Positions 1-49,456 of a stretch of 64,000 bases of DNA are shown here, piece after piece. Below the pieces are notes generated by a model. That model ran no database searches and was not told where the DNA came from. It saw only the letters and a program-made list of their open reading frames with translations. Both the position numbers and the translations under genes were made by a program. Position 1 is the stretch's first letter, and every line of letters starts with the position of its first letter. The stretch covers positions 1,036,831 to 1,100,830 of the forward strand of contig CM082578.2 of NCBI GenBank assembly GCA_040954595.2, read 5' to 3'. Source of the stretch: Balanoglossus misakiensis. Lineage: Eukaryota > Animalia > Hemichordata.

Positions 1-409
1 TCTGTCATGTGTCAACACAAGTGTTCTGTTAAATAACTAGTGCAAATGTGTTTAAATTTTATATGCATGTTTGGCCTTAGTATAGTTTTTGGAAATTGTG
101 AAATTTGGGTATATAATTAAACCCTCTTAGTATCCAAGTGTCCAATTGCCTTGAAATGTACAGTCACTATGTGTAAATACAACAAATGCCATAATTTGAG
201 TGGGAAATTTTTGCTGAGCTAAATTTCTTTAATCACGTCCTGTGTGAAAAAAATGTCTATAGTTTTGTTTGAGAATGGCACATGCTGTCTTACTACTTTG
301 ACTTTATTCTATGTGCATGAAGTCAACATATGTTGGAATAGTTTCTACAGAAATGTCTACTTGTCTTACCCAGATTGCAAACAAATATTTCAAAAAGGTA
401 AATGAGAAG

Positions 410-660
410 AAAGTGTGATCGGCTGAATCTATGAATCTCAAACTTGGCACAATTATGTGGGCCTATGTAATTTCATGCATAACACTCTTGAATTTTTAAT
501 TACTCACTGTAATTGTCAGCTTTGATTGGAATTTTCATATGGACCTTATTTATATTAAAATGTGGAATAAAAAATCTGTTGACAGTCCTTGTACACTACA
601 TGTACCGGTATATGGTCAGGATCCCACATGCCAAATTTCAAGGTTGTGGACCATGTCAAC
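410..660 (+). repeat. Degenerate Helentron 5'-subterminal sequence, homologous to the 5' body of the HINE at 16400-16680 (-)
   Basis: By-eye alignment: aaacttggca..ggcctatg..tgaatttttaatta..ttttca.atgg.cct.attt..aaaa.tctgtt..tggtcag..acat.ccaaat.tcaagg occur in the same order in the reverse complement of 16400-16650. Confidence 0.6.
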
Positions 661-799
661 AGGTTTATCCGTGACCTTGACCTACCCATAGGCCTATACC
701 TCTACAGTGAAGCTATCACCACATTTTATTCTGGCATTCTGGTCTGTACAATAGTCCCGGACATTAAAATGTTAACAGTTATGTATTTATTGATTTCAG

Positions 800-3700
800 A
801 TGCCACGCTCTAGGAACTGGAGGAAGAAGAGGAGTCAGATGAAAGAGGATGCTGCCCTCTCAAAAAACAGCTTCGATATGACAGAGGATGCTGCCCTCTC
901 AAAAAACAGCTTCGATATGACAGAGGATGCTGCCCTCTCAAAAAACAGCTTCGATATGACAGAGGATGCTGCCCTCTCAAAAAACAGCGACGTAATCAAA
1001 GAGGATGCTGCCCTCTATAATCTCAGCGACAATACCCTTCGGGGTGCCAGCCTTCGGTGTTCGAAGGATCAAAACTGTGAAACTTCCCTTCGGGGTTCAA
1101 ACCTTCGGTGTTCGAAGGGTGAAAACTTTGAAACTTCCCTTCGGGGAACCAATGATTCTAGGGTACCTGCAAATGGTGACATTGTCACTTGTGTTAATGG
1201 AAATTTACAGATTGAGAAAGCAGTTGATATTGCACACAAGAGAAATGACAATGAATGTATTATTCAGAATGTTACCCCGAATGAATTTGTTTTCTCTCCT
1301 GTAACCACCACCATATGCCAAGAGTTATGCTGTAAGCTTCACATAAAATATGGAAATAAAGTTGAAATGCTCGATGAAATTCGTAGTGTTGAAATTGGTG
1401 AACCATGCAATATGAAGTCTATTATCGGTGATGGTAATTGTTTGTTTAGAGCTTTGTCGTATGCCATTAGTGGCAGTGAACGTAACCATGCTGTAATGCG
1501 ACAGGCCATTGTAAACCACATGATTGCAAATGACAGTGCATATTTTGGTTGGCTGGACCAAGACCAAGGATATACATCAGTTGCTGATTATATTGCAAAG
1601 TCTAGAATGAATTGCCTAACAATCTGGGGTTCCGAAAATGAGATCTTGGCCGCTGCCGATCTCTTACAAACTGACATCTATGTGTATAGTTCTGGAATAT
1701 GGCTAAGACATTATTGTAATGCAATTAATAAAAGTAATGTTGATAAAGGTGTAGGTATATACCTGAACCATCGCAACAGAGATCATTTTGAAATTGTCAA
1801 GAGTGTAAAGACACGTGAGATGGTAACATCTGACTATACACACATTGAATGTGATGAACTTGTCTCAAGTGAAGGTATGACTAATGAATTCCACAATGAG
1901 GCAGATAGTGGCAGTTGTGTTCCACTAAAGAGTCCATTGGACAAGAAAGGAAATTTCCACTTAAGTGATGAAACTGAAAGTGTTACAAAAGGAAGAGGTA
2001 AGAGACCAGCAATGAGTGAACGATTACGAAAGAAAATCAGAAAACAAAAATATGAATGTAATGAGACCACTGCAAAGAGCTGCAGGGCAATATCTGAATC
2101 AGAATTGTACCACAGTAATTCTCAATATAGAGAGACAAAGAAGTTAAAAAGTAGACAGCATTATCATCAGATCCGAGAAAGTAAGAAACAAAAAATGAAA
2201 GATTTATATGAACAAAATGCCGACTATCGGGACGCCAAAAAGACACAGTCCAGGGTTAAATATGAACAAAATCCTGATTTTCGGGAAGCACAGAAGGCAC
2301 GCATAAGAGTAAATTACGAACAAAATCCTGATTTTCGGGAAGCACAGAAGGCACGCGTAAGAGTAAAATATGAACAAAATGCTGACTTTCGGGAAGCACA
2401 TAAAGCACAAATGTCCCAACAAGTATCCCAAAAATATCACCAAGACGTAAACTTTCGTGAATCAAAGAAGACACAGAGTATTCAACGATATGAGAATGAC
2501 CCTCATTACAAAGATAATGCATTGAAGAGAAGCAGGTGTCAGATGATACAGAATGACATTGATAAGCAAAATGTTCAACATGTTATTGCTAATTTTAGAA
2601 ATACTGCCTCAGAAGGTCCAAATTGTGTATGTTCAGTTTGTCATCGTCGACTTTTCAGGAAACAAGTAATTGTTTGCAACAAGGATAAATATTACAGTAA
2701 CAGAATTACATCTGATATTGCTGTGAAATGTATATCAGAAGAATATGTTCACAAATGTGCCTCGACATGTATGGCTGACTGCCCTCTCAAGAATAATGCA
2801 GCCAGTAAATTGTGGATTTGTTTCACATGCCATAGAAAACTTTTACGTGGAGAGATGCCAGTTCAAGCTGTTGCAAACAACCTTCATGTCACATCAGTCC
2901 CTCCTGAATTGAAATGCCTCAACTCACTTGAGCAACATTTAATTGCATTAAATATTCCATTCATGAAAATGTTGGCATTACCTAAGGGTGGTCAGAATGG
3001 AGTTCATGGACCTGTAGTGTGTGTCCCTTCTGATATAAAGAAGGCTACAAATATTTTGCCACGGAATGAGTTTGATGATCAGATGATAAGGGTGAAATTG
3101 AAGCGAAAACTGAGTTATAAAGGTTACTATGAATATCAGTTTGTAAACAAACGACACATTCAGAATGCTTTGGAATACCTACAGACAAATAATCAGTATT
3201 ACAGTGATATAACATTCAATATGAATTGGAAAAATACTCTTGAAAAGACTGAAGAAGTTATTTCAGATGCTGAAAGCAAATCAGAAAAGTCTAACACCAA
3301 AAGCAATGATGAAAACAATGAAAAGACCAAAGGAAATGTTTCAGATACTGAAAGTAATGATGTGTCATCAGACACAGAAGATAACAATGTGTCCAACAAA
3401 GATACTAATGGAATATTGATGGACACATGCCTCCAACCAATTGACATAGGTCAGGATATTCTTGATTATCACTTTGAGGATATATCTTGTGTTGCTCCAG
3501 CAGAGGGTAATAAACCTGTTTGTCTGTTGATGGAAAAGTTGAATGAAGCTAAGTGCTTTCCTGTGCTATTCCCAACTGGGTCACCCACATTTCACGATGA
3601 CCGAGAGGTTAGGATAACAATAGGACGATACCTGCAAGGTCGTGTAATGAATGCAAGTAACAGATTTTCAAAAAGCACAGACTATATCTTTTATGCGCAA

Positions 3701-6700
3701 TATCTGTCTGAAATTAACCAGGTTGTATCCAATGTGTCAATTGCTTTGAGGAAAGGAACTGCTAATGCTTGTGGCAAAAAAGTGACATCGGATGTTTTAA
3801 GTGACAGTGAATCTTTGAAACAGATTTTGAAGTCTGATGAAGGCTATAAGTTTTTAAAACCTATAAGAGGAACTCCTCCTTATTGGCAAGCAACACAAAA
3901 AGACCTGTTTGCAATGATCAGACAGTTGGGTATACCAACATGGTTTTGCTCATTTTCTGCTGCCGATTTACGGTGGAAAGAAGTTATTGAGACTATACTT
4001 CGTGGAGAAGGAGATGTACGTAATGCTGAGGATCTTGAATGGTCTGAGAAATGTGCTATCTTGAGACGAAATCCTGTAACAGCAGCCAGAATGTTTGATC
4101 ACAGATTTCATTGTTTTCTGAGAGAAGTCATCATGTCACCAGCCAATCCTATTGGAAATATCAAAGATTATTTTTATCGAGTCGAGTTTCAACAACGAGG
4201 CTCACCACATACACACTGCCTATTTTGGGTTGAAAATGCACCAAAGGTTGATAGAGATACTGATGAAGATGTAGTTGATTTTGTTGACAGATATGTAACA
4301 TGTCAAATGCCTTCTGTTGAGGAGGATGAGGAATTGCAAGAGATTGTGAATAAAGTTCAGAAACACAGCTCAAGGCACTCCAAATCTTGCAAGAAAAAGG
4401 GCACTAGATGCAGATTCAACTTTCCACGACCACCATCAAAGAAAACGTTCATATGCCGTCCTGATATAGATATAGAAATGACAGGTGAAGGTGAGAAGTC
4501 AAACCTTGATGACGATAACGCAACACTTGAAGAGAAATGTCAAAGTGACACAACTCAGTTAATTGAGAATGTGATGAGCCAGATGGCTGCTAGGAATATT
4601 TTGGAAAAAGTGTGGACATGCCTGCATGACAAAGAGAAACAGATTGATTCGGTTGATGCACTGTTTAATGAAGTCAGCATTTCTCAGGAGATGTTTGAGA
4701 AAGCACATGCAATTTTAGCAAGAAAGACAAGTGTAGTATTAAAGCGTGAACCAAATGATGTTTGGGTAAACCAATACAATTCTAACCTTCTTCGTTGCTG
4801 GGATGCAAACATGGACATTCAGTTTGTTGTGGATGCTTATGCCTGTGTTGTGTACATTGTGTCATATATCTCTAAGGCAGAGAGAGAAATGGGTTTACTG
4901 CTGGAAAATGCACAGAGAGAAGCAAACAAAGAGGGAAATGTGGATGCTAAATCTGCACTGAAACAATTAGGCAGTGTTTATCTGCACAACAGAGAAGTAA
5001 GTGCTCAAGAGGCTGTATATAGACTGTGTGGATTGAAACTGAAGCAATCATCTCGAAAAGTCCAGTTCATTCCAACTGGAGAAACCCCTATCAAAATGAG
5101 TTTGCCATTGAGTGTAATACGTAGCAAAATGACAGGAGATGATTTGAATGAGGATGATATCTGGTACAATAGCATTGTAGACAGATACAAGAACAGACCA
5201 AATGATGACGAGTTTGACGACATGTGTCTTGCGACATTTTGTTCAGAATATCGAATAGTGTCAAAATCAGAAGTGACAAATACCACCACTGAGAAACGTG
5301 CAAATCCAATAGTGAAGTTGGAAAATGGTGCAGGTTACATGCAAAAAAGATCTCGAACTGATCCAGCTGTCATTAGATATGCAAGATTTTCTGTGACCAA
5401 ATTTCCAGAAAAGTATTACCGCACTATGTTAGAACTCTTCTTGCCACACTGGGTTGATTCCCAATTGAAACCAAATGGGTTTGAAACATATGAAAATTTC
5501 TATTCTGCGGGTGCAGTGAAGTGTGGATCTGCTTCTATACAAACAGTGAAAGTCATAGTAGATGCAAATAAAGCAATGTTTGAGAAAGAGGCTGATGCCG
5601 TTGATTTAGCTGAAGAGCTCCTTGAAGGAAGTGGTCCTCTGGAGGACGCATGGGCCCAAATCTGTCCAGAAAGTGAAATAGACAGATTAGAATGCATTGA
5701 TGAACGTCAACAATTGCCTGATGATGATGTAAATGAGGAGGATATTCCAGATTTGGTGCACAAACCAAAAGGTGATTGCCACATAGAAATTTCTACCTCT
5801 GAAGTAAGGAGGGCTGATGTTCAAGCAATGTGTAGGTCACTGAACAGGAAACAGGCAGAAGTCTTTTATAATGTCAGACAGTGGTGTCTGGATAAAAGCA
5901 ATGGCAAGAACCCAGAATCTTTGTATTTGTTTGTCAGTGGTGGTGCTGGCACAGGGAAAAGCCATTTAATCAAAACCATATATCATGAAGCCAAACGAAT
6001 TCTATCTCGTGTAATGGCTAACCCAGATGAAAAATCAATACAGGTAACAGCCTCAACTGGAGTTGCAGCATTTAATGTAGGAGGTGAAACTCTCCATCAT
6101 GCATTTTCAATAGCAGTAGACTCAAAACTACCATATGAGCCACTACGTGAAGAAAAACTCAACACTCTTCGTTCCAAATTGGGAAATCTTCAGATTTTAA
6201 TAATAGATGAGATTTCTATGGTAGACAGAAAATTATTTCACTACGTACATGGACGATTACGTCAAATCAAACAAACACCAAGTGGTTCACCATTTGGAAA
6301 TGTGTGTGTTATTGCTGTGGGCGACTTTTATCAGCTGCCACCTGTGAAAGCAAGTCCACTGTGTGTGGAAAATGATGCCATCAATATGTGGAATAATTTC
6401 AAAATTGTGGAACTCACTGAAATAATGAGACAAAAGGACTGTGCATTTGCAGAAGCACTAAATAGAGTAAGAATTCACAAGAAAGGGCACACACTGAGTG
6501 CAAATGATCTAGAAATGTTCAATAACTGTGTGACTGGTGAAGCATCTGAGGCAATTCACATTTTTGCTACAAATGCAGAAGTTAACAATTGCAATATCAC
6601 AATGCTACATTCCTTGTGCTCTGATCCTGTATGTATTGAAGCACAAGATTTTAGTAAGAATACTAAGACTGGGAAACTCCAAAGAAAGGAAGGCCATCAT

Positions 6701-7921
6701 GCCAAGGTCTATAGGACCACTTTACCAAAGACTCTCACTCTAGCTAAGGGTGCACGAGTGCAACTGACACAAAATATTGATGTCTCTGATGGATTGGTGA
6801 ATGGTGTATTTGGATCAGTATGTCACATTGATGTGAAACCAAATGAAAGCTTTCCAACTGCTGTTTATGTTGTATTTGACAATGTGAAAGTTGGCCAAGG
6901 ATTGCGAAACAAGAACCGTGTAAATATATCTGACCTTCCTGAAAACACCACCCGTATAGAACCTCAGGAAATGTCTGTTGCAAGTAATGGTGGTATTAGG
7001 AGACAATTTCCTCTGAAACTAGCATGGGCATGTACAGTGCATAAGGTACAGGGATTAACAGTTGAAAAAGCTGTTGTCAGTTTAAAGAAGATATTTGCAC
7101 CAGGACAGGCATATGTTGCATTGAGTCGAGTGACATCATTAGATGGGCTAATAATTGATGAATTTAAGACATCTTCTATATATTGCAATGAAAAGGTTCA
7201 AGCAGCCTTGGAAATGATGCCAAAGTTTGTTGATGGGTGCTTTGAGCAATTACAGCCAAACTATAGATGCTCTTTTATACTTCATAATGTTGAAGGTCTT
7301 CTGAACCACATGGAAGATATTCGTAGTGGCAAGGAATACTTGGAGTCAGACTTTATTTGTTTGACGGAAACATGGCTAACTGAGAACCAGACAAAATGTG
7401 ATGTGATAGTGAATGGATTTGAATTCAGTCACAAGCCTCGGTCAAAATCGTATAACAACTTTGATATGAATACTTCACAGTTGCAGTTGCAACATCATGG
7501 TGGTGTTGGCCTCTACGTCAAAGGAAGTCAATCTGTTGAAATTTTGGATTTGCCTGTTAGTAACTTGGAATATCTTACATTTTATGTCAAAGACATCAAT
7601 ACGGTGGTAGCAGTAATTTACAGACCATCATCCTATAAAGCAGTCGCATTCAGGAAAAACCTTCTTCTGTTGGTGAAGGAAATGTCAAAGTATTCAGGTG
7701 CTACAGTGATCATGGGTGATTTCAATGAAAATATTTTAACCTCATCATCTCTTGTGAAACTCATGCAAGACCATGGTTTCAAACAACACGTGAGCAAACC
7801 AACCACAGAAGCTGGTACATTGATTGACCATGTGTATGTGAAAGGAGCAGGAAAGGTGGAAGTTGGCATTGTGCCAAAGTACTTCAGTTTTCATGAAGCC
7901 ATCAGCATTAAGATCTATTGA
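800..7921 (+). CDS. Helentron (HLE2) RepHel transposase, 2373 aa: OTU cysteine protease, Zn finger, HUH Rep, Pif1 helicase, APE endonuclease
   Basis: OTU GDGNCLFRALS..NRDHF; CSVCH/CFTCH; Rep YRVEFQQRGSPHTHCLFW and YIVSYISKAE; helicase GGAGTGKS, DEISM, GDFYQLPPV, TVHKVQGLTV, GQAYVALSR; APE HNVEG, ETW, IYRP, GDFN, IDH, SFH. Uninterrupted ORF; splice acceptor tttcAG directly before the ATG. Confidence 0.96.
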   Translation: MPRSRNWRKKRSQMKEDAALSKNSFDMTEDAALSKNSFDMTEDAALSKNSFDMTEDAALSKNSDVIKEDAALYNLSDNTLRGASLRCSKDQNCETSLRGSNLRCSKGENFETSLRGTNDSRVPANGDIVTCVNGNLQIEKAVDIAHKRNDNECIIQNVTPNEFVFSPVTTTICQELCCKLHIKYGNKVEMLDEIRSVEIGEPCNMKSIIGDGNCLFRALSYAISGSERNHAVMRQAIVNHMIANDSAYFGWLDQDQGYTSVADYIAKSRMNCLTIWGSENEILAAADLLQTDIYVYSSGIWLRHYCNAINKSNVDKGVGIYLNHRNRDHFEIVKSVKTREMVTSDYTHIECDELVSSEGMTNEFHNEADSGSCVPLKSPLDKKGNFHLSDETESVTKGRGKRPAMSERLRKKIRKQKYECNETTAKSCRAISESELYHSNSQYRETKKLKSRQHYHQIRESKKQKMKDLYEQNADYRDAKKTQSRVKYEQNPDFREAQKARIRVNYEQNPDFREAQKARVRVKYEQNADFREAHKAQMSQQVSQKYHQDVNFRESKKTQSIQRYENDPHYKDNALKRSRCQMIQNDIDKQNVQHVIANFRNTASEGPNCVCSVCHRRLFRKQVIVCNKDKYYSNRITSDIAVKCISEEYVHKCASTCMADCPLKNNAASKLWICFTCHRKLLRGEMPVQAVANNLHVTSVPPELKCLNSLEQHLIALNIPFMKMLALPKGGQNGVHGPVVCVPSDIKKATNILPRNEFDDQMIRVKLKRKLSYKGYYEYQFVNKRHIQNALEYLQTNNQYYSDITFNMNWKNTLEKTEEVISDAESKSEKSNTKSNDENNEKTKGNVSDTESNDVSSDTEDNNVSNKDTNGILMDTCLQPIDIGQDILDYHFEDISCVAPAEGNKPVCLLMEKLNEAKCFPVLFPTGSPTFHDDREVRITIGRYLQGRVMNASNRFSKSTDYIFYAQYLSEINQVVSNVSIALRKGTANACGKKVTSDVLSDSESLKQILKSDEGYKFLKPIRGTPPYWQATQKDLFAMIRQLGIPTWFCSFSAADLRWKEVIETILRGEGDVRNAEDLEWSEKCAILRRNPVTAARMFDHRFHCFLREVIMSPANPIGNIKDYFYRVEFQQRGSPHTHCLFWVENAPKVDRDTDEDVVDFVDRYVTCQMPSVEEDEELQEIVNKVQKHSSRHSKSCKKKGTRCRFNFPRPPSKKTFICRPDIDIEMTGEGEKSNLDDDNATLEEKCQSDTTQLIENVMSQMAARNILEKVWTCLHDKEKQIDSVDALFNEVSISQEMFEKAHAILARKTSVVLKREPNDVWVNQYNSNLLRCWDANMDIQFVVDAYACVVYIVSYISKAEREMGLLLENAQREANKEGNVDAKSALKQLGSVYLHNREVSAQEAVYRLCGLKLKQSSRKVQFIPTGETPIKMSLPLSVIRSKMTGDDLNEDDIWYNSIVDRYKNRPNDDEFDDMCLATFCSEYRIVSKSEVTNTTTEKRANPIVKLENGAGYMQKRSRTDPAVIRYARFSVTKFPEKYYRTMLELFLPHWVDSQLKPNGFETYENFYSAGAVKCGSASIQTVKVIVDANKAMFEKEADAVDLAEELLEGSGPLEDAWAQICPESEIDRLECIDERQQLPDDDVNEEDIPDLVHKPKGDCHIEISTSEVRRADVQAMCRSLNRKQAEVFYNVRQWCLDKSNGKNPESLYLFVSGGAGTGKSHLIKTIYHEAKRILSRVMANPDEKSIQVTASTGVAAFNVGGETLHHAFSIAVDSKLPYEPLREEKLNTLRSKLGNLQILIIDEISMVDRKLFHYVHGRLRQIKQTPSGSPFGNVCVIAVGDFYQLPPVKASPLCVENDAINMWNNFKIVELTEIMRQKDCAFAEALNRVRIHKKGHTLSANDLEMFNNCVTGEASEAIHIFATNAEVNNCNITMLHSLCSDPVCIEAQDFSKNTKTGKLQRKEGHHAKVYRTTLPKTLTLAKGARVQLTQNIDVSDGLVNGVFGSVCHIDVKPNESFPTAVYVVFDNVKVGQGLRNKNRVNISDLPENTTRIEPQEMSVASNGGIRRQFPLKLAWACTVHKVQGLTVEKAVVSLKKIFAPGQAYVALSRVTSLDGLIIDEFKTSSIYCNEKVQAALEMMPKFVDGCFEQLQPNYRCSFILHNVEGLLNHMEDIRSGKEYLESDFICLTETWLTENQTKCDVIVNGFEFSHKPRSKSYNNFDMNTSQLQLQHHGGVGLYVKGSQSVEILDLPVSNLEYLTFYVKDINTVVAVIYRPSSYKAVAFRKNLLLLVKEMSKYSGATVIMGDFNENILTSSSLVKLMQDHGFKQHVSKPTTEAGTLIDHVYVKGAGKVEVGIVPKYFSFHEAISIKIY
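838..1150 (+). repeat. Coding minisatellites in the RepHel-1 N-terminus (39-bp unit x ~4.5, then 51-bp unit x ~2.3)
   Basis: MTEDAALSKNSFD repeats; ETSLRGSNLRCSK repeats. Confidence 0.9.
2200..2410 (+). repeat. 54-bp coding repeat (YEQNPDFREAQKARxRVx) x ~4
   Basis: Direct repeats visible in DNA and protein. Confidence 0.85.
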
Positions 7922-7998: not shown

Positions 7999-8358
7999 GT
8001 GAATGGATTGAAATTCAATCACCAGCCTCTGTGCAAATCATTAATACGGTGGTAGCAGTAATTTAAGACCACCATCATATAAAGCAGAGGTGTTCAGGAA
8101 AAACTTACTTCTGTTGATGAAAGGAAATGTAAATGTATCCAGGTGCTTCAGTGATCATGGGTGACATCAATGAAAATATTTAAATCATCTCTTGTCAATG
8201 TAATGCAAGACCTTGGTTTCAAGCAACATTTGAGCAATCTAACTACAGAAGCTTGTACATTGATTGACCATGTGTATGTGAAAGGAACAGAAAATATTGG
8301 AGTTGAAATACTGCCAAAGTACTTCAGTTTTCATTAAGCCATCAGCATTAACATCATT
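7999..8358 (+). pseudogene. Decayed tandem duplicate of the 3' end of the APE endonuclease coding region
   Basis: Matches ~7409-7445 joined to ~7598-7917 (aatacggtggtagcagtaattta..., attgattgaccatgtgtatgtgaaagga, ccaaagtacttcagttttcat) with indels and stops. Confidence 0.9.
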
Positions 8359-12130: not shown

Positions 12131-12310
12131 GGGTAGGCAGAATTAAGCGCATGGGTTGGTATGCGTACAGAGGTTGTCAGCATTCGCAAATCATTGCGAA
12201 AATATTTAGTTTGCGTATAAATTTCACAAAAATATCTATTTATGATAGAAACTGTTCACGCAATGTAAAAAAAATAATTGATCTTGATGCGTGAAAATTT
12301 GTGCCTACCC
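12131..12310. mobile_element. Small MITE-like element
   Basis: Inverted ends gggtaggcagaatt / aatttgtgcctaccc; no clear TSD. Confidence 0.4.
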
Positions 12311-32518: not shown

Positions 32519-32549
<31 letters not shown>

Positions 32550-34349: not shown

Positions 34350-34565
34350 TCTGTATGTGTGGATGCCACACAGTGGGAGCGTATTCCACCATTGGTCTTA
34401 CAAGGGATTTATATTACTTTCTCCTTCATCGAGTGGGAACTAATTTAAAGATTTCTACAAAGAAATCCCAGAGATTCGTTTACTTAGCCTTGTTACAAAT
34501 GGAATTAATATATTCATACCAATTAAGCCCAGATGTCAAGATACAACCAGGAATTTTTTCTGAGA
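34350..34565 (-). pseudogene. Fragment of non-LTR retrotransposon (CR1/L2-group) reverse transcriptase C-terminus
   Basis: Broken translation SGLNWYEYINSICNKA...YKSLVRPMVEYAPTVWHPH resembles the LINE motif SDLSW..HI..IC.KA...YKSLVRP.LEYAS.VWDP. Confidence 0.75.
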
Positions 34566-38026: not shown

Positions 38027-38195
38027 TATATAAACTAAACCGCACCCCCAAATGTCTGGCTCACTTGACATGACTTTCTGGAAGAAGCCACTTCAGAAGT
38101 TCTCAAAAAGCGATACGATCTTCAGGACGACGGTTGGTGCGGTGTGTAGGCCTACAGTAGTAGTATAAACAGGGACATAGTTCAACTGGTAAGTA
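38027..38195 (+). promoter_or_regulatory. Candidate TATA promoter and non-coding first exon of the OB-fold gene
   Basis: TATATAAA at 38027, Inr-like TCACTT at 38061, donor CTG|GTAAGT at 38189, polypyrimidine acceptor at ~38387/38394 before the ATG. Confidence 0.5.
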
Positions 38196-38405
38196 CCGAC
38201 TTTATAATATAATAATGATCTGAGGGGGTTGATGTATACTCAAGATTTTTAAAATCGTACAAAAATGAATAATTGCTCTGTTACAATTTACATCATGTTT
38301 CAAAAATAAGCCCCGATCAAAAATTTCATTCCCATTTTTTTCTTCTCAACACCATCATTAATTTACCTTTACTCTATTCCTTTACAGTAAACAGTTCAAC
38401 CGAAA

Positions 38406-41400
38406 ATGGCAACCAAAAACAAAGATATATCAATCAAATTCAAAATACTAGAAAATCCAGAGCCAAGGATGTCAGTTGGTGGCCCATTCCACAACGTTAT
38501 GGCACTCGACGACCACGGCACAGTAAGAGAGGTGAAAATCTGGAAAGAGGCCTGCCTGCCCAAAATGAAAAAGGGCGCATTTATCGAACTGCGGCACTTC
38601 GGTACATGCGCCAATGGAGGAATATCCATCAACCGAAACACCAAGGTGAGTACAAAAAGCCCATCAGATCGCCCAACGAGTACAATACGAGTAATCGCTT
38701 TAGCAACTCCGCGTTCGCCCCACTCCCTAATCCGTCATACAAACGGACACGGTTAGCTTTGACAATAGTTTTGTCGACCTGCGGTGCCGATCCGGACCGG
38801 ACCAAAAGAGAAATACGTTGATTCAGAAAATGTTACCAAATAACGCTCGCGTGATCATACTCAAAAGGTTAGGACATAAAGTTATCGGGATTGGTAAAAA
38901 TGAACCGAAACACTCGCTTTGAACATAATTTTACACCTGCTCACCGATCTAACGTCAGAAATATAACCCAACCCATCATGTTTCCATTACAACGTAGTAA
39001 ATAAGCGTTACGGTCCTGATTTGTCACGCTGATCAGCACTTTCTTTAACTACGCGCATATAGCAGCGGACTATTCTCTAGCTACGACATGTCCGTACTTC
39101 TATCCGTGCATCCGTCACCAGCGATTCCTCACGCATTTGTGAAGCAATTTTTGAACAAATTGGTCTGAATAAATTACATTACGGTCTCCCAATGCACACG
39201 CTTGCTTTCACAAAATAATTTCATTTTGCCACTACATTTTACTCACCCAGCAGACCAATTTTAGCTGTTTTTGGTATAAAAGAATCTGCTCCTGTTAACT
39301 TGAATTCTGATATGCACATTCCCCGGGGTGACCATAACAATATTGTTCAATTAGTGGTGACAGTGTATGGGGAGGGGCAATTTGGCCACTTTAAGTAAAA
39401 AAAACCAACAGTTTGAAAGTGAAATTGTACTATTCCTATTTTGAAGGGGGCGGGGGGAGTTTGCCAATTTCGGTGTAATAATATATTCTCTGAATGCTCT
39501 TCCCAGAAATTTCTAAAACAGTATGCAGACTCCTGGGGTAACCTAATAGAAAGGCCATAAAAATACATATCCATGTAGACCAGGGGATGGGTGCATGATT
39601 CACTATCTCTTCACATGTTTTAATCAATAATCCATTTTATCGGGGGAGGGGGGGGGGGAGACAGACTAGTACTGCCCCTAACAAGATGTCACTGACACAA
39701 TGACAGTCCCCCTTCCCAGAGTGAAATCATCAAAAAATATTCTGGTAAAAGTTGGACAATCCCCCTATTCATGCCATACCACATGCAACACTGATGGAGT
39801 ACATTGTCATTTTCTTTCACAGATTGCTCACACAGGCACAAAAGCATTTAAAGTTAATGACAAAGCTGAACATGGCTTCTACAACCCAGACGAAGTTGAA
39901 CTGGGCGCAGTCCAACATTCTCCACTCAAAAGAAGGATGAGTGTGGTTGCCACAATCGACACGGTAGGCAGAAAGAAATGCAGTGTTTAAAGGGGAATTA
40001 GCTTTGACTTTTACCATGTATTTTCAGTATTTTTGACATGTGCACTAAATGCAACTTCTTTTTCTTTAATTGAAAATTCATTCAAAGACAGTGCTAAAAG
40101 TGAACGACCTTATTTCTCTGACACGGCCTTCGTCTGATCACATTAACGTTTCCACGGTAACAGTCAAGAGAACATGAACAGAGAGTTCAAAACTGCCTTT
40201 TTGAAACTCAAATCATACTCATAGACAGATTCACTCTGATTGTGTCAAACAAAACATTGATATCTGAATTCCCATTCTATTCATGAAGGTGTCTCCAGAG
40301 GTGCAGACGGTGAATAAAAGCCGGAAGAGAGATGTAACACTTACTGATGGTCAACAAAACGTAAAAATGAACCTGTGGGGATCCAAATGTGATCTGGACG
40401 TAAAGCCTGGTGCCAGGGTGAAAATTGGACCACTAACAGTGGACAAGTTCCGTGACCAGACTCAGCTCAACAGCACCATGTCAACTGAAATAGAGGTGAG
40501 TTGATAAACACTGCAAATACCACCACACTACCAAAACCTACCTACCTGTTCAAGTCACTTGTCCCACACATTCTGTTTGTTTCCAAACCATCCACTTTGG
40601 TACGCTATTTTACTCCTACTCTACAAACTGCCATTGATAGTAATCGGCATCAAACTCCACTCCACTGCTTTCATTTCAAATTATTCATGTCACAAACTTT
40701 TCCAACAGACAGGCAAATCTGCACTATATTTAAATAGAATATACCTTCATGTTCACAATTACAGTGCTTCACAACAATACTAGTGTACACAACTAATATA
40801 TTGCATGTTTTTGTTCACACACAGACAATAGAAGAAAAAGCAGACACAAAACAATACACAGGAACCCTGCAAGGCATAGACGAAGAAGAAAAGTAAGCAC
40901 ACAAAACCATTCACAACACAGACTAGCAAGGATAATTTTATCCTAGCTAAGGAGTCTCACCATGGTCTGTTGCTGATATGTAGACAGAGTGTTGGTCAGA
41001 CTCCTTAGCTACGTTAAATTATCCACGCTAATATCTCTGTGCAGAATGCACACAATCGTGTAATCAAATGCCATACACCCTACCAAATTCTGCACCCTGA
41101 AATTATGCTAGTTATACATTCTGCAAAATACCAAATGTACATTTTACTTCAAATATTACTAAACATGTGTCTGGCAACTACCTACTTCACTTAAAAACTT
41201 GAACCAGTTTCAAAATATTTTTCTACCAATAACACTGTCCGGTTTACACCAATTTACCAAGCAAGTGCATTTTGGGTAAGAACTGTATTCTGGGTAATCA
41301 AGATGACTTCCCCAAATTTCTGCATAAACTCTGGCCACAACATTTGTGACAGTCGGAAATTTCAGTATGTGCCAACTGTATATTTCAGTCCTTGATCAGT

Positions 41401-42131
41401 CCAAAAAAAAACTTTCTACCAGTGTATGTAGCTCTGTCACATGTTCTACCTTCACAGTATCATTCTACCGGTTATGATTGTCAGATTTAGCTTTGTCACT
41501 TTATAAACTTATAGGACTCATGGTGATATACTACACAATGATGATATCTACAAAATTGGCAACAACAAAATAATTAAAAAACCTTTCCTCCATTACAGTT
41601 CACTGATCATAGATGGAGCATACATGCTTTGCGAGGCTGACACAGCAGCATCCCTAGGAACAATTGATGACATCATTGACCAACTGCCAGTAGAAGTTAC
41701 CTACACAAAAAGAGGTCATACCATTACAGAAATAAGGTAACATTAAATTATGTAACATTTGTGCTTTGTATATGGACTTGCCCAGGATATCATTTTTGGA
41801 ACATCTTACAACTAAATTTAGTATCAATGGAGCTGCATTTATAGCAAATATTGAATTTCAACACATCAACACCTGAATCTGCAGACTGAACGATCTGCAT
41901 ATACAGATAAGTATCCGAGCTAACAGTACACTAAGCAATGGCAGATGATCCAGACCAAAGAGTACACAAAACAACACGACACACTTTAACATGTACTCCA
42001 ATTACCATCTACTCTATAAATACCCATAAAAAATCTTTACTTTTTTTTACTACAGGCTGAAAACCAAACCTGATGGTGATGGATGTGGTGGTGCAGCAGG
42101 TGACACTGGTGATGATGAACAGCTTGACTAA
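38406..42131 (+). CDS. Spliced tandem OB-fold ssDNA-binding (RPA/SSB-like) protein, 289 aa, acidic C-terminal tail
   Basis: Exons 38406-38645, 39823-39963, 40289-40495, 40825-40892, 41599-41736, 42056-42131; all GT-AG with compatible phases (0,0,0,2,2), total 870 nt. RPA-type motifs MALDDHGTVREVKIW and RKRDVTLTDGQQNVKMNLWG..VKPGARVKI..TVDKFRDQTQLNST; ends GDTGDDEQLD. Confidence 0.85.
40939..41018. repeat. Short hairpin MITE in intron 4
   Basis: tagctaaggagtctcacca / tggtcagactccttagcta; related to the TIRs at 47046-47533. Confidence 0.65.
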
Positions 42132-43548: not shown

Positions 43549-43763
43549 TCCGTACCGTTCTCAGTCCCTGTGTTTGCTAGTAACTGATTTCGGGAAGTGC
43601 CTGTATGTTCATTGCCATTTTTGGTTCTAAAATACATATCCCTAAAAATGATTGTTCCATTGCTTTGCAATATACAGTTTACAGTACCCTACAAGGAAAC
43701 CCATACTACTGACTACTGTATATATACACAGCAGATTTCCTACATCATACATGTTTCCATTAA

Positions 43764-46685
43764 AGGGACAAAGTGTCTCTTTCTCTGCCCTTTTTTCCAT
43801 TTAGTGGAGCGGCCAAACCCTAGTTTTCATAGCAATTGTGCATTTTGTGATAAAAGCACCAAACTTGGCTCAGATGTGTGTTAATGTGTACTCAACAAAT
43901 TCAGAGAGCGAACCACTAAATATCTGTTGATGAGTTTCCATGGCAACCAATTTTTCAAAATGGCCACCAATACAGATAATTTCACCCAACAAATAACATA
44001 GATCTGTAAACACCAAAATAAATTAAGATTACTATATTTGATACAAGGAACTGTGGAAAGAATGATTTGCAAAGATATTATGGTTACTAAACTACTTAAA
44101 GGGGTAGGTAAGTTATCAAAACACAATTTAAAGGCACACCTTTTAATCCCTTTGTTCTCGGATTAATAGGTGCTCCTCTAGAAGTCAAACCATATACTGT
44201 CTATGGTCAAACATTAGGCCAATTGCGATATTTAACTTGCAGTACGTAAATTACACATATGAATCACAACAGTTTACCACCTTAGCTGATGATAATCATA
44301 TAAACAGATCACCGATATATTCGAATTGCACACGGATGTGGGCTTGGCTTACTCGTGACTGGTAAAATTTCCTTATCAACTTGATAGGAGAGTCCACTGC
44401 CCGAAATAGACGTTAATCCAAACTGAGTCCGCGGTCGTCGCGTTTATTGGTCGACAGACATACACATAGGGCCTCAAACGCAATGCAATCTAAATGGACC
44501 CCGGGTAACGAACCATGAGAAAATGTCGGCTTTGTTTCGACCACAATCGCGACCGCAGCGTTGACAACATTTTTTCGGGGCGTTGATGTTTGTCAAAATG
44601 CCATAGGAAATTAAAGAAACTTAAGTAGGATTGCTGAAACGTTAATAATCGACCATATGTCTTGATACTTTAGATCATGTATCAGTTCGACTCCAGCAAT
44701 TTTGGTGACTGTTAACAGAGTTGACCAAAAGATAAATGGCGTCTATGATTCCAAACTCATAAAAATTACACGGGAGGACACAACATTATTTTATTTGTCG
44801 AGAATAGTGTTCATCATGCCATAAATATTGTCAAAAATGTGTGTTAATTATAGAAACCCAACTAAAGATACAAGCAGTTGGCCTTTAGATTGGTAAATGG
44901 AAAAACAGGTCTTATTGCAATTTTCTGGGATTAGGTGGCCCAATGCTCCCAACATTCAAGTCACTTGGAATGTACTACCATTCTAATATCTCAATGTGTA
45001 AAGATCTGACTTGCAAGAGATATTACGCAAAATTTCATTTCATTTAATAGCATGAAGTAAGCGAAATCTTACTCTTTACAGAAAAGCTGTGATCCTGAAG
45101 ACTTTTGGTGTTTTGAAGCTTATTTTTACTTTATCATTTTATTCTTAGATTTTGGGGGTTCAAAAATACACAAAATAACATGTCAAAATAGAACTGCTGA
45201 CTATCATCAAGGTGCGATTAAAATTATCGATAACATGAACAATACAAAGCCCTTCAAGCGACTTCATCAAAACGCTTTCCGAAGGACAAGTATTGGATGA
45301 AAAGTTTGAAACAGATTTTGATTTTCATTCCTAACATCTATCTATGTACATGCAACCTAGACATAGTTAGTTTCTACAGTAACTTTAACAAACCAATCGA
45401 CTGTCATGATACTGGCTATCTGCCACCATTTTATGGGGAAGTGATTCTTTATTTGCATGAATCATTTGATGAACTTAAATAGAAAAGCTAGATTCTACAC
45501 TGATTCAAACTGGTCAGATCAATTTATAAGGTTGAGAAACAACATGCCGTTTTTTCCCTGGGTTGACTAAATTTGGAATTTTGTTCATCAAAGATATTTT
45601 TATGGGGAAAATAACGAATCAACTGAGCTTTACTTGTTAAACTTTTATCACAAAATGCCCAAATGTTATGAAAATGTTGTTTATGCCAGGCCACTATTAT
45701 AAAATATCTATGGTTATACAGTGACTGAATCTCGATCCTGTATTTACCCCTATAACTAGTTTAGTAATGATAAATATTTTGAAAATTACTCTTTGAACAG
45801 TTGTTTGTTTCAAATATTGTAATGTGAATTTATTTTGGTGTTTTATAATTGTTAATTTGTAGGTGAGATTATCTGTATTGGCGGCCATTTTGAAAAAAAA
45901 AAAATGGTTGCCATGGAAACTCATCAACAGATATTGTGGCTCGCTATCTGAATTTGTTTAGTACACATTAATGCACATCTGAGCCAAGTTTGGTGCTTTT
46001 ATCACAAAATCCACAATCGATCTGTTATGCCGCTCCACTGTAGACATTAAACTGTGTTTTATCCTTTATTCTGTATTTATAACTATTTCAGTGACCACAA
46101 ATACTTGGCAAATCACCCTTTCTATAGTTTCTGGTTTCAAATATCATAATCTGAAATTACCTTGGTGTTCTTTAGTCGTTATTTTGTGGGAAAGATTAAT
46201 GTAGTGGTGGCCATTTTGAAAAATGGTTGCCATGGCTACCCGTTAACAGATATTAAGTGGCTCGCTATCTGAATTTGCTTAGTACACAGTAACACACATC
46301 TGAGCCAACTTTGGTGCTTTTATCACAAAATGCACAATCGCTATGAAAATTGGGGTTTGGCCGCTCCACTAATTAAATATATTTGATACAAGACACCGTT
46401 TGTTTATTGTACATGTGGGTATATAGTGAATGAACGTTCAACCGCACACAACTTCCATCCCTCTTATAGACAGGAGAGTGAAAAAACTTGCCAAAATGAA
46501 TAGTCGTTCTTTACCATTTATTCATTTTGGGCGAGTTTTTACTCTCATATCATACAAGTGGGAAGGAAGTTTTGTGTGGTTGAACGTTGATTCACTATAT
46601 ATCCACATGTACATTAACATAAACAGTGTCTTGTATCAAACATAATTAATGGCAAAAAGGGCAGCAAGAGAGAGACTTTGTCCCT
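43764..46685. mobile_element. Kolobok-type palindromic MITE (~350 bp) split by a nested insertion
   Basis: TTAA|AGGGACAAAGT ... ACTTTGTCCCT|TTAA; 46375-46650 folds as a hairpin. Confidence 0.82.
43802..46371. mobile_element. Academ-like non-autonomous DNA transposon nested in the Kolobok MITE
   Basis: Long TIRs starting TAGTGGAGCGGCCAAACCC, 3-bp TSD ATT; an extra internal right-end copy at ~45740-46041. Confidence 0.78.
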
Positions 46686-47011
46686 TTAATGTAGCAGTCA
46701 ATGTCAACCCTCACACACCTCACCTTGAGGTATAGTGGGGATTTTGGATATTAGTCTTGTGAAATTTGCCAAATGCCCCACCCCATGGGGCAAGACAATC
46801 TGGCAAACCCCGTACACTTCCCCAAACCCAATGGGTGGGGCACTTATTGATTCTGTGCTTGATTGTGAAGATGACTAGTGGGTCAAAATTAAGCAATTGC
46901 CCCATACCCCTGGGCTTTGTTGACTTTTTCCCTGGCGAACCACATCTAAACCCCCACATTTATCCCGTATTGCTGAATCAACAAACCTTGAACTTGCACA
47001 ACCATGCAGGC

Positions 47012-47550
47012 CATTCTCCACGCAGAGACTTGGAGTGGATAATTCTAGCCTAGCTAGGGGGTCTGACCAATAGCCACAAGCAAATTAAAATATTCCAAAC
47101 CGGACCTTCTTTCAGTCCTGTGCGAGCCCAGTTGGGTCAATATCTATGGCGGACAGTTATATAGTCGCCACCATCTTCGTATATACACTTCAGACACTGT
47201 AGTTGCTTTGGTTTTAATGTCAATTTAGAGTCATAAGCTGCAATAACTTTCGCGATTGCGTTTGAAAAACCTACAGCAACGGGGGCAGCCATCTTGAATC
47301 GTCAATTCACATTTATGTAACCAAGGGCAGAATCTATGTTTTGCAAGTGTTCACAGATTCGAGGATCGACTTTCAAACTGGTTCATTTTTTAGTTCTCTA
47401 CAAAATATTAAACTTAAAAAAGACAGGAAATGTATATTATAGAAAACGCGCAACACCCAAAAAGTGGGTGTAAAATGTCGTCTGTGGCAAAGACTAAACA
47501 GCGGCTATTGGTCGGACTCCCTAGCAAGGTTAGTCTCTGCGTGGAGAATG
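47012..47550. mobile_element. Nested MITE pair
   Basis: Outer cattctccacgcagagact / agtctctgcgtggagaatg; inner tagcctagctagggggtctgaccaatagcc / ggctattggtcggactccctagcaaggtta. Confidence 0.7.
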
Positions 47551-47579
47551 CATGCAGGCCTGTGAGACCTTGTGCATAA

Positions 47580-49456
47580 CACTTGATTTCTTAATTACTT
47601 GCGTGACCTGGTAATTTCCCATATCCCAGCATTAACAGCACATACTGGCTGCATATCTAATCCTAGGTTAATCAATAGGGCAAGAAGTTAGGTACTACTA
47701 TTTGTTGCACATGGACCAGTATGGAACCAAGTTTTTTGACAAAAAGTGAGGGTAACCTGCTTATATGCGTATATACCTTATACATATAGACAGAAAAACA
47801 GACAGACATACATACATACAGACACATAGCATGATAACCCTGGACAGACCCTGGACCTCGGCACTACCCACCCTACCCACTCATACTACCAGTTGTAAAA
47901 GTACCAGAATCATGATTTTTGTGCACATGGGTATCACAGATCACAGACGCCAGGATTTGCCCCAAATATTTCGGTAATTTTACCAATGACCTTTGACCTA
48001 CTTTTAACACATTATTTCTCTGCAAATGCTTACCTTTATGTCTACAAGTTTGATTATTGATGCATGTGCATCAGTATGGGACTAAAATTTTATAGTGAAT
48101 TTTGCGACCCCCTTGACCTCTGCTCACATCATTTAATATGTGCATACTTAACCCAGTGCTTTTGCTTTAAACTTGTATCTATGGTAACCACATTATCAGC
48201 AGTGAATGCCACAATTGTAAACCAATGACAGTTTAATATCAAGCAATCTATGGAATTAAATGTAAACAAAGGGTATTGTGTCTTTGCTGGGTACATACAT
48301 ACAGACAGACACAAAATTCATAAAAAAACATACATACTAACTTGCACTGTACACATATTACACACATACTCAAACACAGGAGTAGAGAACTCTTTTTTTT
48401 TCATCATCCCCACCAGGAATCGAACCTAGATCCCTTATCACAAAGTGACAAGTATGTTAACCATTACACCATGGGGATTTTTTATGTCCACTCACTCCCA
48501 ACACACACTCAAATTGCACATTCACTGATTCACACATTCAACTCATCTAACACACCAGTTTCTTTATTTCAAAAACAACAAAAAATCATCAATGGATGTG
48601 AGAAATGACAGTATCACGAATTTCAAACATGATATATCTCGACATCCACAGCAGTAAGAGCCTTGGTATATGGTAGAATGGAACAACCAATGCAGTATTA
48701 TACATTACCTCATTAATCATATACTTACCAAATTCTAGGCTAACCAATATTGCTAAAGGTCTGAATTTACTTGCACGTGAACCAATGTGATCTACAAAAT
48801 TTTCTGGTAAAACTTTTCGTAACCTTGGGGTATCCTTTCAACTAATTTCATCAGTACAATATACACAACATTGTTATTTAGTGAGTATAACAGCTGCCAG
48901 CACTTGCCCCAAATATTTTGGTAATTTTGACAATGACCTTTGACACATTGTTTTCCTGCATATCTAATTCCTGGCTAACACATAAAGCTAGAAGTTTGAT
49001 TTATGATGCATGTGGACCAGTATTGGATCAAAATTTTTGGCCCAAATGTTGGGTGACCTCTGGTGACCTTTGACCTACTTTCGCATATCTCAGCATCCAC
49101 AGCAGATACAGCCATGGCATTTGGTAGGATGGGACCAAAATGTAAAGCCACATTTTTAGGTCAACTGTGACACCTGCTGACCTCATTAAATATGCACAAA
49201 CCTAATTACAGGCGAACCAATAGAGCTACAGTTTTGGTTTTTGTTGGACATGGACCAGTATGGGTCACAAAAATGTTGTGTGACCTCAGGTGACCTTTGA
49301 CCTACTTCACCCTATTTCAGCAGCAAAAATACACACATCCTTGTTATGTCATGAGATAATACATCCAATAGAAAATTCTGTTTCTTTTCATTCATACTGT
49401 GCATATATAATTCAAGATCAGCGCTTGGGCCCGACAATGCTGCTTGCAGCTTTAAT
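47580..49456 (+). mobile_element. Diverged Helentron 3' region ending in an intact 3' terminus
   Basis: Degenerate HINE-type subrepeats; subTIR GCTTGGGCCC at 49423-49432, hairpin GCTGCTTGCAGC at 49439-49450, then TTTAAT. Confidence 0.8.
48405..48478 (-). ncRNA. tRNA-like element (tRNA-Gln-like scaffold, atypical anticodon arm)
   Basis: ATCCCCA TG GTG TAATGGTTAA CAT A CTTGTCA CTTTG TGATAAG GGAT CTAGG TTCGATT CCTGG TGGGGAT G; all four stems pair, A and B boxes present, anticodon arm 19 nt instead of 17. Confidence 0.7.

What the first reader, a model, noticed from the sequence alone, without database searches (positions are those of the whole stretch)
1..49456. Possible giant (>49 kb) Helentron carrying RepHel, its own spliced SSB gene and a tRNA-like RNA
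Seen: HINE-type 5' body sequence sits in + orientation upstream of RepHel-1 (410-660). HINE-type 3' subrepeats start ~330 bp after the OB-fold stop (42460-42830), resume after a MITE cluster (47580 onward) and end in an intact subTIR-plus-hairpin terminus at ~49456. I found no + strand 5' head or 3' end of this family between these points. Known: HLE2 elements have asymmetric TIRs and a 3' hairpin, and some Helitrons encode RPA-like proteins. Inferred: these pieces are one autonomous rolling-circle element with a replication kit (Rep, helicase, nuclease, protease, SSB), and it is the likely mobiliser of the surrounding HINEs.
Basis: partly seen in the sequence, partly recalled or inferred. Interest (0 to 1): 0.85.

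Follow-up and report, generated by a model that had tools for sequence, protein, structure and literature searches.

The report
Nested Helentrons, not one giant element
This stretch holds two intact rolling-circle transposon enzyme genes facing each other, and is likely a young transposon inserted inside an older, larger relative that likely carries the spliced gene for a predicted single-stranded-DNA-binding protein, an arrangement built from parts already known for this transposon group.

Summary
Most of the described pieces are real, but the joining is probably wrong. The span holds a second intact RepHel (26659→19355, minus strand, 2434 aa) that the finding omits.

The six-exon OB gene (289 aa) has a 51%-identical acorn-worm homologue with dispersed paralogues, predicted to fold as tandem OB domains. 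It sits head-to-head with RepHel-2, not RepHel-1.

In contigs from one sample, RepHel-1 and its flank to ~13.3 kb are matched by near-identical contigs about ten times deeper than those over 17-18.6 kb, the OB gene and the tRNA segment. Depth drops just beyond a minus-strand head stack at 16,751-16,871.

Best reading (0.6): a young element A (RepHel-1, head at 16,871) is nested in an older element B (RepHel-2, OB gene, tRNA-like insert, 3' end 49,456; ≥32.6 kb seen, ~22 kb without insertions and satellite), both with RepHel antisense to their termini. RPA-like cargo upstream of RepHel, antisense RepHel and self-insertion are all published for Helentrons. B's 5' head is not in the window and its mobility is unshown. 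The tRNA-like sequence folds but has a non-canonical anticodon arm.

The parts
420..657 (+). Degenerate, headless HINE-body relic upstream of RepHel-1, inside its predicted 5' intron
   Evidence: 67% identity over 244 bp to 16648-16418; profile hit E 2e-10; acceptor AG just before the ATG
794..7921 (+). RepHel-1 (OTU-DUF6570-Rep-PIF1-endonuclease), intact; young multi-copy family (element A)
   Evidence: near-identical contigs at depth 621-817 in run X1
8039..8355 (+). Duplicated, broken fragment of the RepHel-1 endonuclease end
   Evidence: 85% identity to 7594-7915
10215..12420 (.). 2.2-kb insertion with 19-bp terminal inverted repeats, absent from some copies of element A
   Evidence: joint 10211→12422 in both runs
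13810..15345 (-). Inferred head-side body of element A (body, 155-bp unit, 240-bp units) that runs on into the RepHel-1 flank with no 3' end
   Evidence: 94.6% identity over 1049 bp to the HINE at 56726-57935; profile map; no 3' end
15346..16750 (-). Complete HINE nested in the T-tract behind another head
   Evidence: joints 16692→16810 and 16696→15340
16751..16871 (-). Two identical 5' head hairpins of the second subTIR subfamily; inferred 5' end of element A
   Evidence: depth falls to 100-136 at 17265-18592 in run X1
19100..19270 (-). Long stem-loop about 100-250 nt downstream of the RepHel-2 stop; role unknown
   Evidence: RNA fold z -4.0, 0 of 200 shuffles fold as well
19355..26659 (-). 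RepHel-2 (same domain order), intact; inferred transposase of element B
   Evidence: sister to RepHel-1, SH-aLRT 100 in the quick tree; dN/dS 0.21 over 1758 codons against RepHel-1
27004..32460 (.). 208-bp tandem array (24 units, 97% matches, plus degenerate edge units) in the predicted 5' intron of RepHel-2
   Evidence: candidate minus-strand donors at 32677 and 34185
33001..39000 (.). CpG-rich region between the 5' ends of RepHel-2 and the OB gene (inferred divergent promoters), with three inverted-repeat insertions (33338-33781, 34624-35253, 36482-37057)
   Evidence: CpG observed/expected 0.8-1.4, against 0.2-0.7 in the RepHel ORFs
38406..42131 (+). Six-exon gene for a 289-aa tandem-OB protein (exons 38406-38645, 39823-39963, 40289-40495, 40825-40892, 41599-41736, 42056-42131)
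   Evidence: 51% identity over 270 aa to P0134
42350..42862 (+). Degenerate 240-bp-type Helentron subrepeats just behind the OB stop
   Evidence: E 3.5e-6 and 1.2e-13; the piece at 42350-42425 only E 0.25
43758..46691 (.). Nested inverted-repeat elements with TTAA at both outer ends: a palindromic MITE holding a 2.6-kb element
   Evidence: joint 43799→46374 in run X2
47047..47535 (.). Likely MITE with imperfect inverted ends
   Evidence: read from the sequence, ends printed; loose X3 contig over 47080-47550
47552..49456 (+). 3' region of element B: body-like motif, 240-bp subrepeats, subTIR 49423-49432, hairpin 49439-49450
   Evidence: 77-78% identity to neighbouring HINE 3' parts
48405..48478 (-). 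tRNA-like cloverleaf with a non-canonical anticodon arm, followed by an A-run, in a 956-bp segment that a high-depth form lacks
   Evidence: joint 47937→48894
49457..57935 (+). Nest of HINEs: 3 heads and 6 further 3' ends; the bodies behind 49456, 51128 and 56726 start in the T-tract that normally follows a head

Best explanation
The span holds two intact, convergent Helentron RepHel genes and is likely a nest: a young multi-copy element A (RepHel-1, 5' head likely at 16,871 on the minus strand) inserted into an older, low-copy element B that likely owns RepHel-2, the head-to-head OB gene and the 3' end at 49,456, so that in both the transposase would run antisense to the termini. Inferred mechanism, from known HUH rolling-circle elements: RepHel nicks at the 5' hairpin end, its PIF1 helicase unwinds one strand to the subTIR-plus-hairpin 3' end, and the strand is joined at a T-T target. 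The OB protein, expressed from a divergent promoter, would coat the displaced single strand. New copies tend to land in T-runs of resident copies, which builds the nest. The 240-bp subrepeats sit at the head side of A and the tail side of B, so deletion between such repeats would give the 1.2-1.7-kb HINEs. B shows at least 32.6 kb (16,872-49,456), about 22 kb after removing 5.1 kb of other insertions and 5.5 kb of satellite. Its head, and A's 3' end, are predicted to lie left of the window. Shown: genes, termini, orientation, homologies, contig depth contrast. Inferred: which ends belong to which RepHel, expression, ssDNA binding, mobility of B.
For: (1) Two RepHels with intact catalytic motifs; dN/dS 0.21. 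(2) Depth contrast in both runs. X1: 7 of 8 listed contigs lie in 1-13207 at depth 324-817 with 0-9 differing letters; the eighth (17780-18230) is at 101; all 8 listed X1 contigs in 32828-48400 are at 36.5-89.9. X2: 625-4349, against 323 and 38-365. (3) The fall in depth lies just right of the minus heads at 16,871. (4) No + strand 3' end in 7921-13830 and no minus-strand 3' end in 16872-19355, by family motif or by a generic hairpin+TTT scan. (5) Bracket logic: insertion into the T-run behind a head is visible at 54064/54138 and 16808/16750. The + array has 4 of 7 3' ends without a head, and the minus stack has 2 of 3 heads without a 3' end. A minus element nested in a plus element, both closing left of the window, accounts for both. 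(6) The OB gene lies upstream of RepHel-2. PMC11417382 (section 22) finds RPA upstream of RepHel in HLE2, and HIN and Ssb-like_OB almost only in HLE2. (7) The OB homologue has three paralogues at 91-94% identity on contigs of three different lengths in Ptychodera flava, plus a diverged fourth. (8) Antisense RepHel is published for Helitron-1_DR, Helitron-2_CRe, Helentron-Da-40A and FoHeli4/5. The window's RepHels group with fish, hagfish, abalone and acorn-worm proteins. (9) The + oriented, headless body relic at 420-657 is what the inversion-by-self-insertion model of PMC5148889 would leave.
Against: Neither element has both ends in the window and no genome is held. The read tool warns that summed contig depth is no copy number. 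The runs are one sample, hold only 52-58% of the sampled words of 36000-43500, were laid at different thresholds (80 and 88), and most rows were not shown. No listed contig bridges 13,810, so that junction could be a 3'-truncated HINE insertion. RepHel-2's 3' end is deep (2,500-5,300 in X1 at 19118-19433) while the OB exons are at 100-190, so most RepHel-2-like copies do not carry an OB gene that is 80% alike. A distant coral family has the canonical layout, with a 3' hairpin+T end about 2.5 kb downstream of RepHel in 3 of 4 aligned copies. No OB homologue was found in the 80 metagenome Helentron loci (best profile E 0.022, no Pfam match), though most have short flanks and are 29-62% identical. 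Headless array units can also arise by unequal crossing-over. The 208-bp unit shows no significant likeness to the 240-bp unit.
Confidence: 0.6

Rival explanations
1. A Helentron pile-up without intact nesting. RepHel-1 and RepHel-2 are canonical-orientation elements whose own ends were lost or lie outside the window, the 13.8-16.9 kb stack is a set of partly truncated HINE insertions, and 47.5-49.5 kb is an old headless HINE at the edge of the array. The OB gene would still be RepHel-2 cargo, but the 49,456 end would not be its terminus.
For: + oriented body relic before RepHel-1; canonical layout in a coral family; the family-level depth of RepHel-2 stops near 19,100; HINE fragments are very abundant in this genome (summed depth above 100,000).
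Against: It needs several independent losses to explain why RepHel-1-level depth runs up to the minus stack and stops at its heads, and why neither RepHel has a downstream 3' end. Subrepeats in the orientation of the 49,456 end start right behind the OB stop, at low depth.
Confidence: 0.22
2. One reading: one autonomous + strand element over 49 kb with RepHel-1, the OB gene and the tRNA-like sequence, into which RepHel-2 and the minus HINE stack inserted later.
For: No + head or 3' end between 1 and 49,419; the 49,456 end requires a head further left; + oriented body relic at 420-657.
Against: The OB gene, the tRNA segment and 17.8-18.2 kb are about tenfold shallower than RepHel-1 and not matched by deep near-identical contigs. 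RepHel-2 has no termini of its own around it. The OB gene would be 30 kb downstream of its RepHel, whereas RPA is reported upstream in HLE2 and it is upstream of RepHel-2.
Confidence: 0.1
3. The OB gene is a host gene (a lineage-specific ssDNA-binding paralogue) that Helentrons happen to surround.
For: Six exons, a CpG-rich 5' region and near single-locus depth in this sample; Atlas look-alike clusters in molluscs and chordates.
Against: Three near-identical paralogues on different contigs in P. flava, two of them shorter than full length; no match to any core RPA, MEIOB or SHLD2 family at Pfam's cut-off; flanked by RepHel-2 and Helentron subrepeats.
Confidence: 0.06

Closest known systems
Helentron / HLE2 with RPA, OTU and endonuclease (Thomas et al. 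2014, PMC4067079; Li et al. 2024, PMC11417382)
   Same: RepHel with OTU, DUF6570, Rep, PIF1 and endonuclease; subTIR with 5' hairpin and 3' hairpin; T-T junctions; a separate OB/RPA-like gene upstream of RepHel; HINE deletion derivatives.
   Different: The OB gene has six exons and scores below Pfam's RPA cut-off, whereas the mite RPA ORF is intronless and RPA70-like. PMC11417382 found RPA limited to subgroup a and the endonuclease to subgroup b, while here an endonuclease-bearing RepHel has an OB partner. The visible size of B (≥32.6 kb, ~22 kb core) exceeds that paper's default 10-kb search window on each side.
Helentrons with RepHel in the opposite orientation: Helitron-1_DR, Helitron-2_CRe (PMC3627910), Helentron-Da-40A (PMC4067079), FoHeli4/5 = HLE2-reverse, and FoHeli3 with an upstream opposite ORF (PMC5148889, PMC11417382)
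   Same: Inferred antisense RepHel relative to the termini; a second gene upstream on the opposite strand; self-insertion near 5' ends.
   Different: Here the orientation is inferred from half-elements, not from complete copies; the upstream gene is an OB protein; two such elements would be nested.
Plant Helitrons with RPA (Mothra, PMC4683698) and large maize Helitrons up to 39 kb (reviewed in PMC6431247)
   Same: Carriage of an ssDNA-binding gene; large size through accumulated cargo.
   Different: Those are HLE1 elements with TC/CTRR ends and RPA downstream of RepHel. Here the length comes from introns, a satellite and nested MITEs rather than captured host exons.
Tandem-OB proteins RPA70 DBD-A/B, Teb1 AB, HIN-200
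   Same: Best Foldseek matches for the P. flava homologue (E 3e-7 to 3e-4); Trp and Phe/Tyr at the positions that stack on ssDNA in RPA domains (role recalled; alignment).
   Different: 8-16% identity; low-confidence model (mean pLDDT 55); no zinc-ribbon C-terminal domain; binding untested.

Membership tests
Helentron / HLE2 | RepHel with HUH Rep motifs and PIF1 helicase | tested here: met
   Both proteins: Helitron_like_N E ≤5e-30, PIF1 E ≤1e-27; HUH, Tyr, Walker A and B motifs intact
Helentron / HLE2 | C-terminal apurinic-type endonuclease and OTU protease domains | tested here: met
   Exo_endo_phos and OTU above cut-off in both
Helentron / HLE2 | DUF6570 marker of HLE2 | tested here: met
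   E 5e-21 in both; marker according to PMC11417382 section 23
Helentron / HLE2 | Asymmetric terminal inverted repeats with 5' and 3' hairpins on one element | tested here: inconclusive
   Met for four HINEs in the window. For A only a 5' end and for B only a 3' end is in the window
Helentron / HLE2 | Insertion between T and T, shown by an empty site | tested here: inconclusive
   T-rich junctions at all termini; no empty site for A or B could be sought
Helentron / HLE2 | Placement in the HLE2 clade against HLE1 references | not tested
   The tree held only homologues found here and no HLE1 or Repbase references
   About tenfold depth contrast between RepHel-1 and the OB/tRNA/17.8-kb segments in both runs; an indirect test in one sample
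RPA-like ssDNA-binding cargo | Tandem OB fold | tested here: met
   Exon 3: REPA_OB_2 E 0.024, Atlas 0.95. Homologue P0134: Atlas structure matches TM 0.44-0.56, Foldseek Teb1/HIN/RPA70
RPA-like ssDNA-binding cargo | Binds single-stranded DNA | not testable with these tools
   Needs biochemistry
Core RPA70 orthologue | Pfam RPA domains at cut-off, including the C-terminal zinc-ribbon OB domain | tested here: not met
   P0134: 20 bits against a cut-off of 27, no Rep_fac-A_C; 288-289 aa
Translational tRNA gene | Cloverleaf with D- and T-loop invariants (A and B boxes) | tested here: met
   Rfam 46.2 bits, no non-standard pair marked; fold z -2.45, 3 of 200 shuffles as good
Translational tRNA gene | 5-bp anticodon stem with 7-nt loop and U33 | tested here: not met
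   The arm is two nucleotides longer than the model. With a 7-nt loop, position 33 is C and position 32 is A (read from the sequence); the canonical pattern is recalled

The most novel reading that the evidence does not exclude
Element B is a member of a family of very large (30-50 kb) animal Helentrons that still move as a unit, with a divergently transcribed RepHel/SSB gene pair, an antisense layout and a structure-conserved, non-decoding tRNA-like RNA polymerase III unit near the 3' end that shields or regulates the element. At this locus it would carry a whole second Helentron as a passenger, making a rolling-circle unit over 49 kb.
Probability: 0.12. Interest if true: 0.6.

Novelty: new variant of a known kind. 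Interest (0 to 1): 0.33.

Why it matters
If the nesting holds, it adds an animal example of large, intron-rich Helentrons whose ends lie beyond the 10-kb windows used by current annotation, and names an unannotated spliced OB-protein family in acorn worms as Helentron cargo. It would also give a locus where the proposed route to antisense RepHel by self-insertion has left a relic. RepHel-1 looks recently active, so it could serve for an HLE2 transposition assay with and without the OB protein, which would test the old idea that Helitron RPA-like genes aid transposition. None of this is a new kind of system.

Tried and rejected
- No whole genome is held, so other copies, empty sites and the sequence left of the window could not be read.
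- No RNA holder listed; this is no evidence on expression.
- Word-based protein searches for the OB family failed: exon 3, 0 of 12 candidates; P0123 found only itself among 215 candidates. The HMMER search found 10 proteins.
- PDB sequence search with P0134: no match at E ≤1.
- Viral contigs with RepHel-2: 0 of 11 pattern matches confirmed. Viral and prokaryote collections with the alignment returned only helicase-domain matches (80 loci each shown). The terminus pattern had 0 matches in viral contigs. The OB alignment was too variable for a locus search.
- A generic paired-terminus scan of the metagenome loci of 5 kb or more found no pair with a 5' hairpin, but it recovered only one of the window's own HINE pairs, so it is insensitive.
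- No second OB gene in the window.
- No homology between the non-coding flanks of the two RepHels, or between the 208-bp and 240-bp units, clearly above shuffles.
- Rejected: reading the depth of about 500-1200 at 47.4-47.5 kb as the tail of the RepHel-1 family. It lies in a likely MITE, and at the three listed sites in 47481-47499 every laid contig differs from the window.
- ARAGORN with introns and a lowered threshold on the metagenome loci gave only low-score or intron calls and one tRNA cluster (first 60 output lines seen).
- The careful tree did not finish; the quick tree was used.
- Paper searches: Helentron + OB-fold 0 papers; Helentron + hemichordate 0; Helentron + tRNA-like 1, unrelated by title and abstract; Helentron + opposite orientation + RPA 3. 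Searches were seen as listings. Supplements of PMC11417382 (Table S11, Figure S18) and Repbase were not seen and may already list such elements.
Full report
What is in the span. The window is 64 kb of animal DNA at about 39% GC, probably from an acorn worm or similar marine invertebrate. This is inferred from best hits: Saccoglossus for RepHel and Ptychodera flava for the OB protein. Two ORFs over 2300 codons face each other: RepHel-1 at 794-7921 (+) and RepHel-2 at 26659-19355 (-). Both carry OTU, DUF6570, Helitron_like_N, PIF1 and endonuclease domains with intact catalytic motifs. They are 79% identical in DNA, are sisters in a 33-row quick tree, and show dN/dS 0.21 over 1758 codons. The finding names only the first.

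The OB gene. Six exons with GT-AG introns give a 289-aa open frame from 38406 to 42131. The splice model is backed by a P. flava protein, P0134 (288 aa), which aligns over 270 aa at 51% identity. That protein has two further cluster members at 91-94% identity on contigs of different lengths, and a diverged relative on a fourth. This fits a dispersed mobile gene better than a single host gene. Exon 3 scores weakly for REPA_OB_2 (E 0.024) and 0.95 against an RPA OB cluster in the Atlas. A low-confidence model of P0134 (pLDDT 55) matches Teb1 AB, HIN-200 and RPA70 AB, and the Atlas's own model gives RPA-like tandem-OB neighbours. It is an RPA-like tandem-OB protein, not a core RPA70. DNA binding is predicted only. 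The gene starts about 11.8 kb from the RepHel-2 ATG on the opposite strand. Between them lie a satellite-filled predicted intron (candidate donors at 32677 and 34185) and a CpG-rich stretch at 33-39 kb. PMC11417382 (passages and sections 22-24 read) reports RPA upstream of RepHel in HLE2 and HIN and Ssb-like_OB domains almost only in HLE2. The natural partner is RepHel-2.

Termini. Two subTIR subfamilies occur. On the + strand there are 3 heads (52570, 54064, 54138) and 7 3' ends (49456, 51128, 52565, 54065, 55636, 56726, 57935). On the - strand there are 3 heads (16871, 16808, 16750) and one 3' end (15349). New copies visibly sit in the T-run behind an earlier head (54064/54138; 16808/16750). 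The sequence after 49456 begins in that same T-run and continues as a HINE body, so the element ending at 49456 is itself nested behind a head that is not in the window. In the minus stack, once the complete HINE at 16750-15346 is removed, the heads at 16871/16808 continue into a body (15345 downwards; 94.6% identical to the HINE at 56726-57935), then 155-bp and 240-bp units to about 13,810, and then into the RepHel-1 flank with no 3' end. No 3' end of any kind was found downstream of either RepHel before the other element's sequence begins. I wrote this nesting reading down before seeing that earlier unreviewed notes on this genome describe the same head-nesting; these notes are not independent support.

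Copy evidence. Two runs of one sample hold 58% and 52% of the sampled words of 36000-43500. Laid on 1-19900 at 88% likeness, 7 of 8 listed X1 contigs fall in 1-13207 at depth 324-817 with 0-9 differences over 470-740 bases; the eighth, at 17780-18230, has depth 101. Binned depth is 582-3222 through 13,280 and 100-136 at 17265-18592. A joint 10211→12422 shows that a 2.2-kb inverted-repeat insertion is absent from some copies. Laid on 31500-51400 at 80%, all 8 listed X1 contigs in 32828-48400, including the OB gene and the tRNA segment, have depth 36.5-89.9. X2 shows the same contrast (625-4349 against 38-365). The tool states that such depth is no copy number, and the tables are cut, so I take this as a strong hint and not a count. 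It says that RepHel-1 belongs to a young family whose copies share the flank up to the minus stack and do not share the OB gene or this tail. Against my own reading, RepHel-2's 3' end is deep (2,500-5,300 in X1) while the OB exons are not, so B is at best a low-copy, diverged member of its family and its mobility is not shown.

How it most likely works. Element A (RepHel-1) has its 5' head at 16,871 on the minus strand and inserted into element B, which owns RepHel-2, the OB gene and the 49,456 end. In both, RepHel then runs against the head-to-tail direction. That layout is published: Helitron-1_DR and Helitron-2_CRe (PMC3627910, passages), Helentron-Da-40A (PMC4067079, passages and section 8), FoHeli4/5 (PMC5148889, passages). 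The last paper proposes that it arises by self-insertion in the opposite direction with loss of the inner ends, and the headless + oriented body relic at 420-657 fits that. Hence 0.6 and not more. The chemistry (Rep nicking, PIF1 unwinding, OB protein coating the displaced strand, joining at T-T) is carried over from known rolling-circle elements and is untested here. B's visible length is about 32.6 kb, of which 5.1 kb is other insertions and 5.5 kb satellite. Maize Helitrons reach 39 kb (PMC6431247, passages). On mobilising the HINEs: B's 3' part is only 77-78% identical to its HINE neighbours, while A's end is 94.6% identical to the last HINE of the array, so RepHel-1 or deeper RepHel-2 relatives are the likelier movers.

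The tRNA-like sequence. It scores 46.2 bits in Rfam with all stems paired and folds better than 197 of 200 shuffles. The anticodon arm is two bases long and lacks U33, and an A-run follows the 3' end directly. It lies in a 956-bp segment that a deep form lacks (joint 47937→48894). A retroposed tRNA-derived fragment is the simplest reading. The fully kept pairing leaves a polymerase III structural role open. A likeness of its D arm to eukaryotic tRNA-Gln is recalled and untested.

Verdict. The parts are real and are Helentron parts. The single RepHel-1-driven giant is unlikely (0.1). RPA-like cargo in animal Helentrons is known (PMC4067079; PMC4683698, passages; PMC11417382). What is somewhat new is the spliced OB family, its pairing with an endonuclease-bearing RepHel, the size and the nest. 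My searches found no description for hemichordates, but Repbase and the supplements were not seen. New variant of a known kind; interest 0.33.

Noticed in passing
window 58029-62400 (-): Overlapping ORFs ending in a tyrosine recombinase (Phage_integrase E 3e-13); likely a DIRS-type retrotransposon. The other three ORFs had no Pfam match at E 0.01; RT-like motifs were seen by eye only.
   Followed up: partly
window 19100-19270 (-); L035 10543-10575; L040 8127-8156: A long stem-loop just downstream of the RepHel-2 stop (z -4.0), where family-level depth ends. Two coral loci also have hairpins 150-300 nt behind the RepHel stop, with no sequence likeness to it. No Rfam match at gathering score.
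   Followed up: partly
window 27004-32460: A 24-unit, 97%-homogeneous 208-bp satellite inside the predicted 5' intron of RepHel-2; related units are deep elsewhere in the sample. A possible case of a satellite growing inside an autonomous Helentron.
   Followed up: partly
window 10215-12420: A 2.2-kb CpG-rich element with 19-bp terminal inverted repeats and no long ORF, polymorphic among RepHel-1 copies.
   Followed up: partly
window 43758-46691: A palindromic MITE with TTAA at both ends that holds a deep 2.6-kb inverted-repeat element and a further terminal copy; superfamily not assigned.
   Followed up: partly
window 839-1146, 2257-2408, 24813-25054, 26247-26552: Both RepHel ORFs carry in-frame tandem repeats (periods 39, 51, 54 and 66, 45 bp) at matching positions but with different units.
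   Followed up: no
window 63188-63861: An inverted-repeat element and a 69-bp tandem array at the right edge.
   Followed up: no
L029 243-452: An Ile-Gln-Met tRNA cluster upstream of a Helentron fragment in a metagenome contig; probably mitochondrial in origin (gene order recalled).
   Followed up: no
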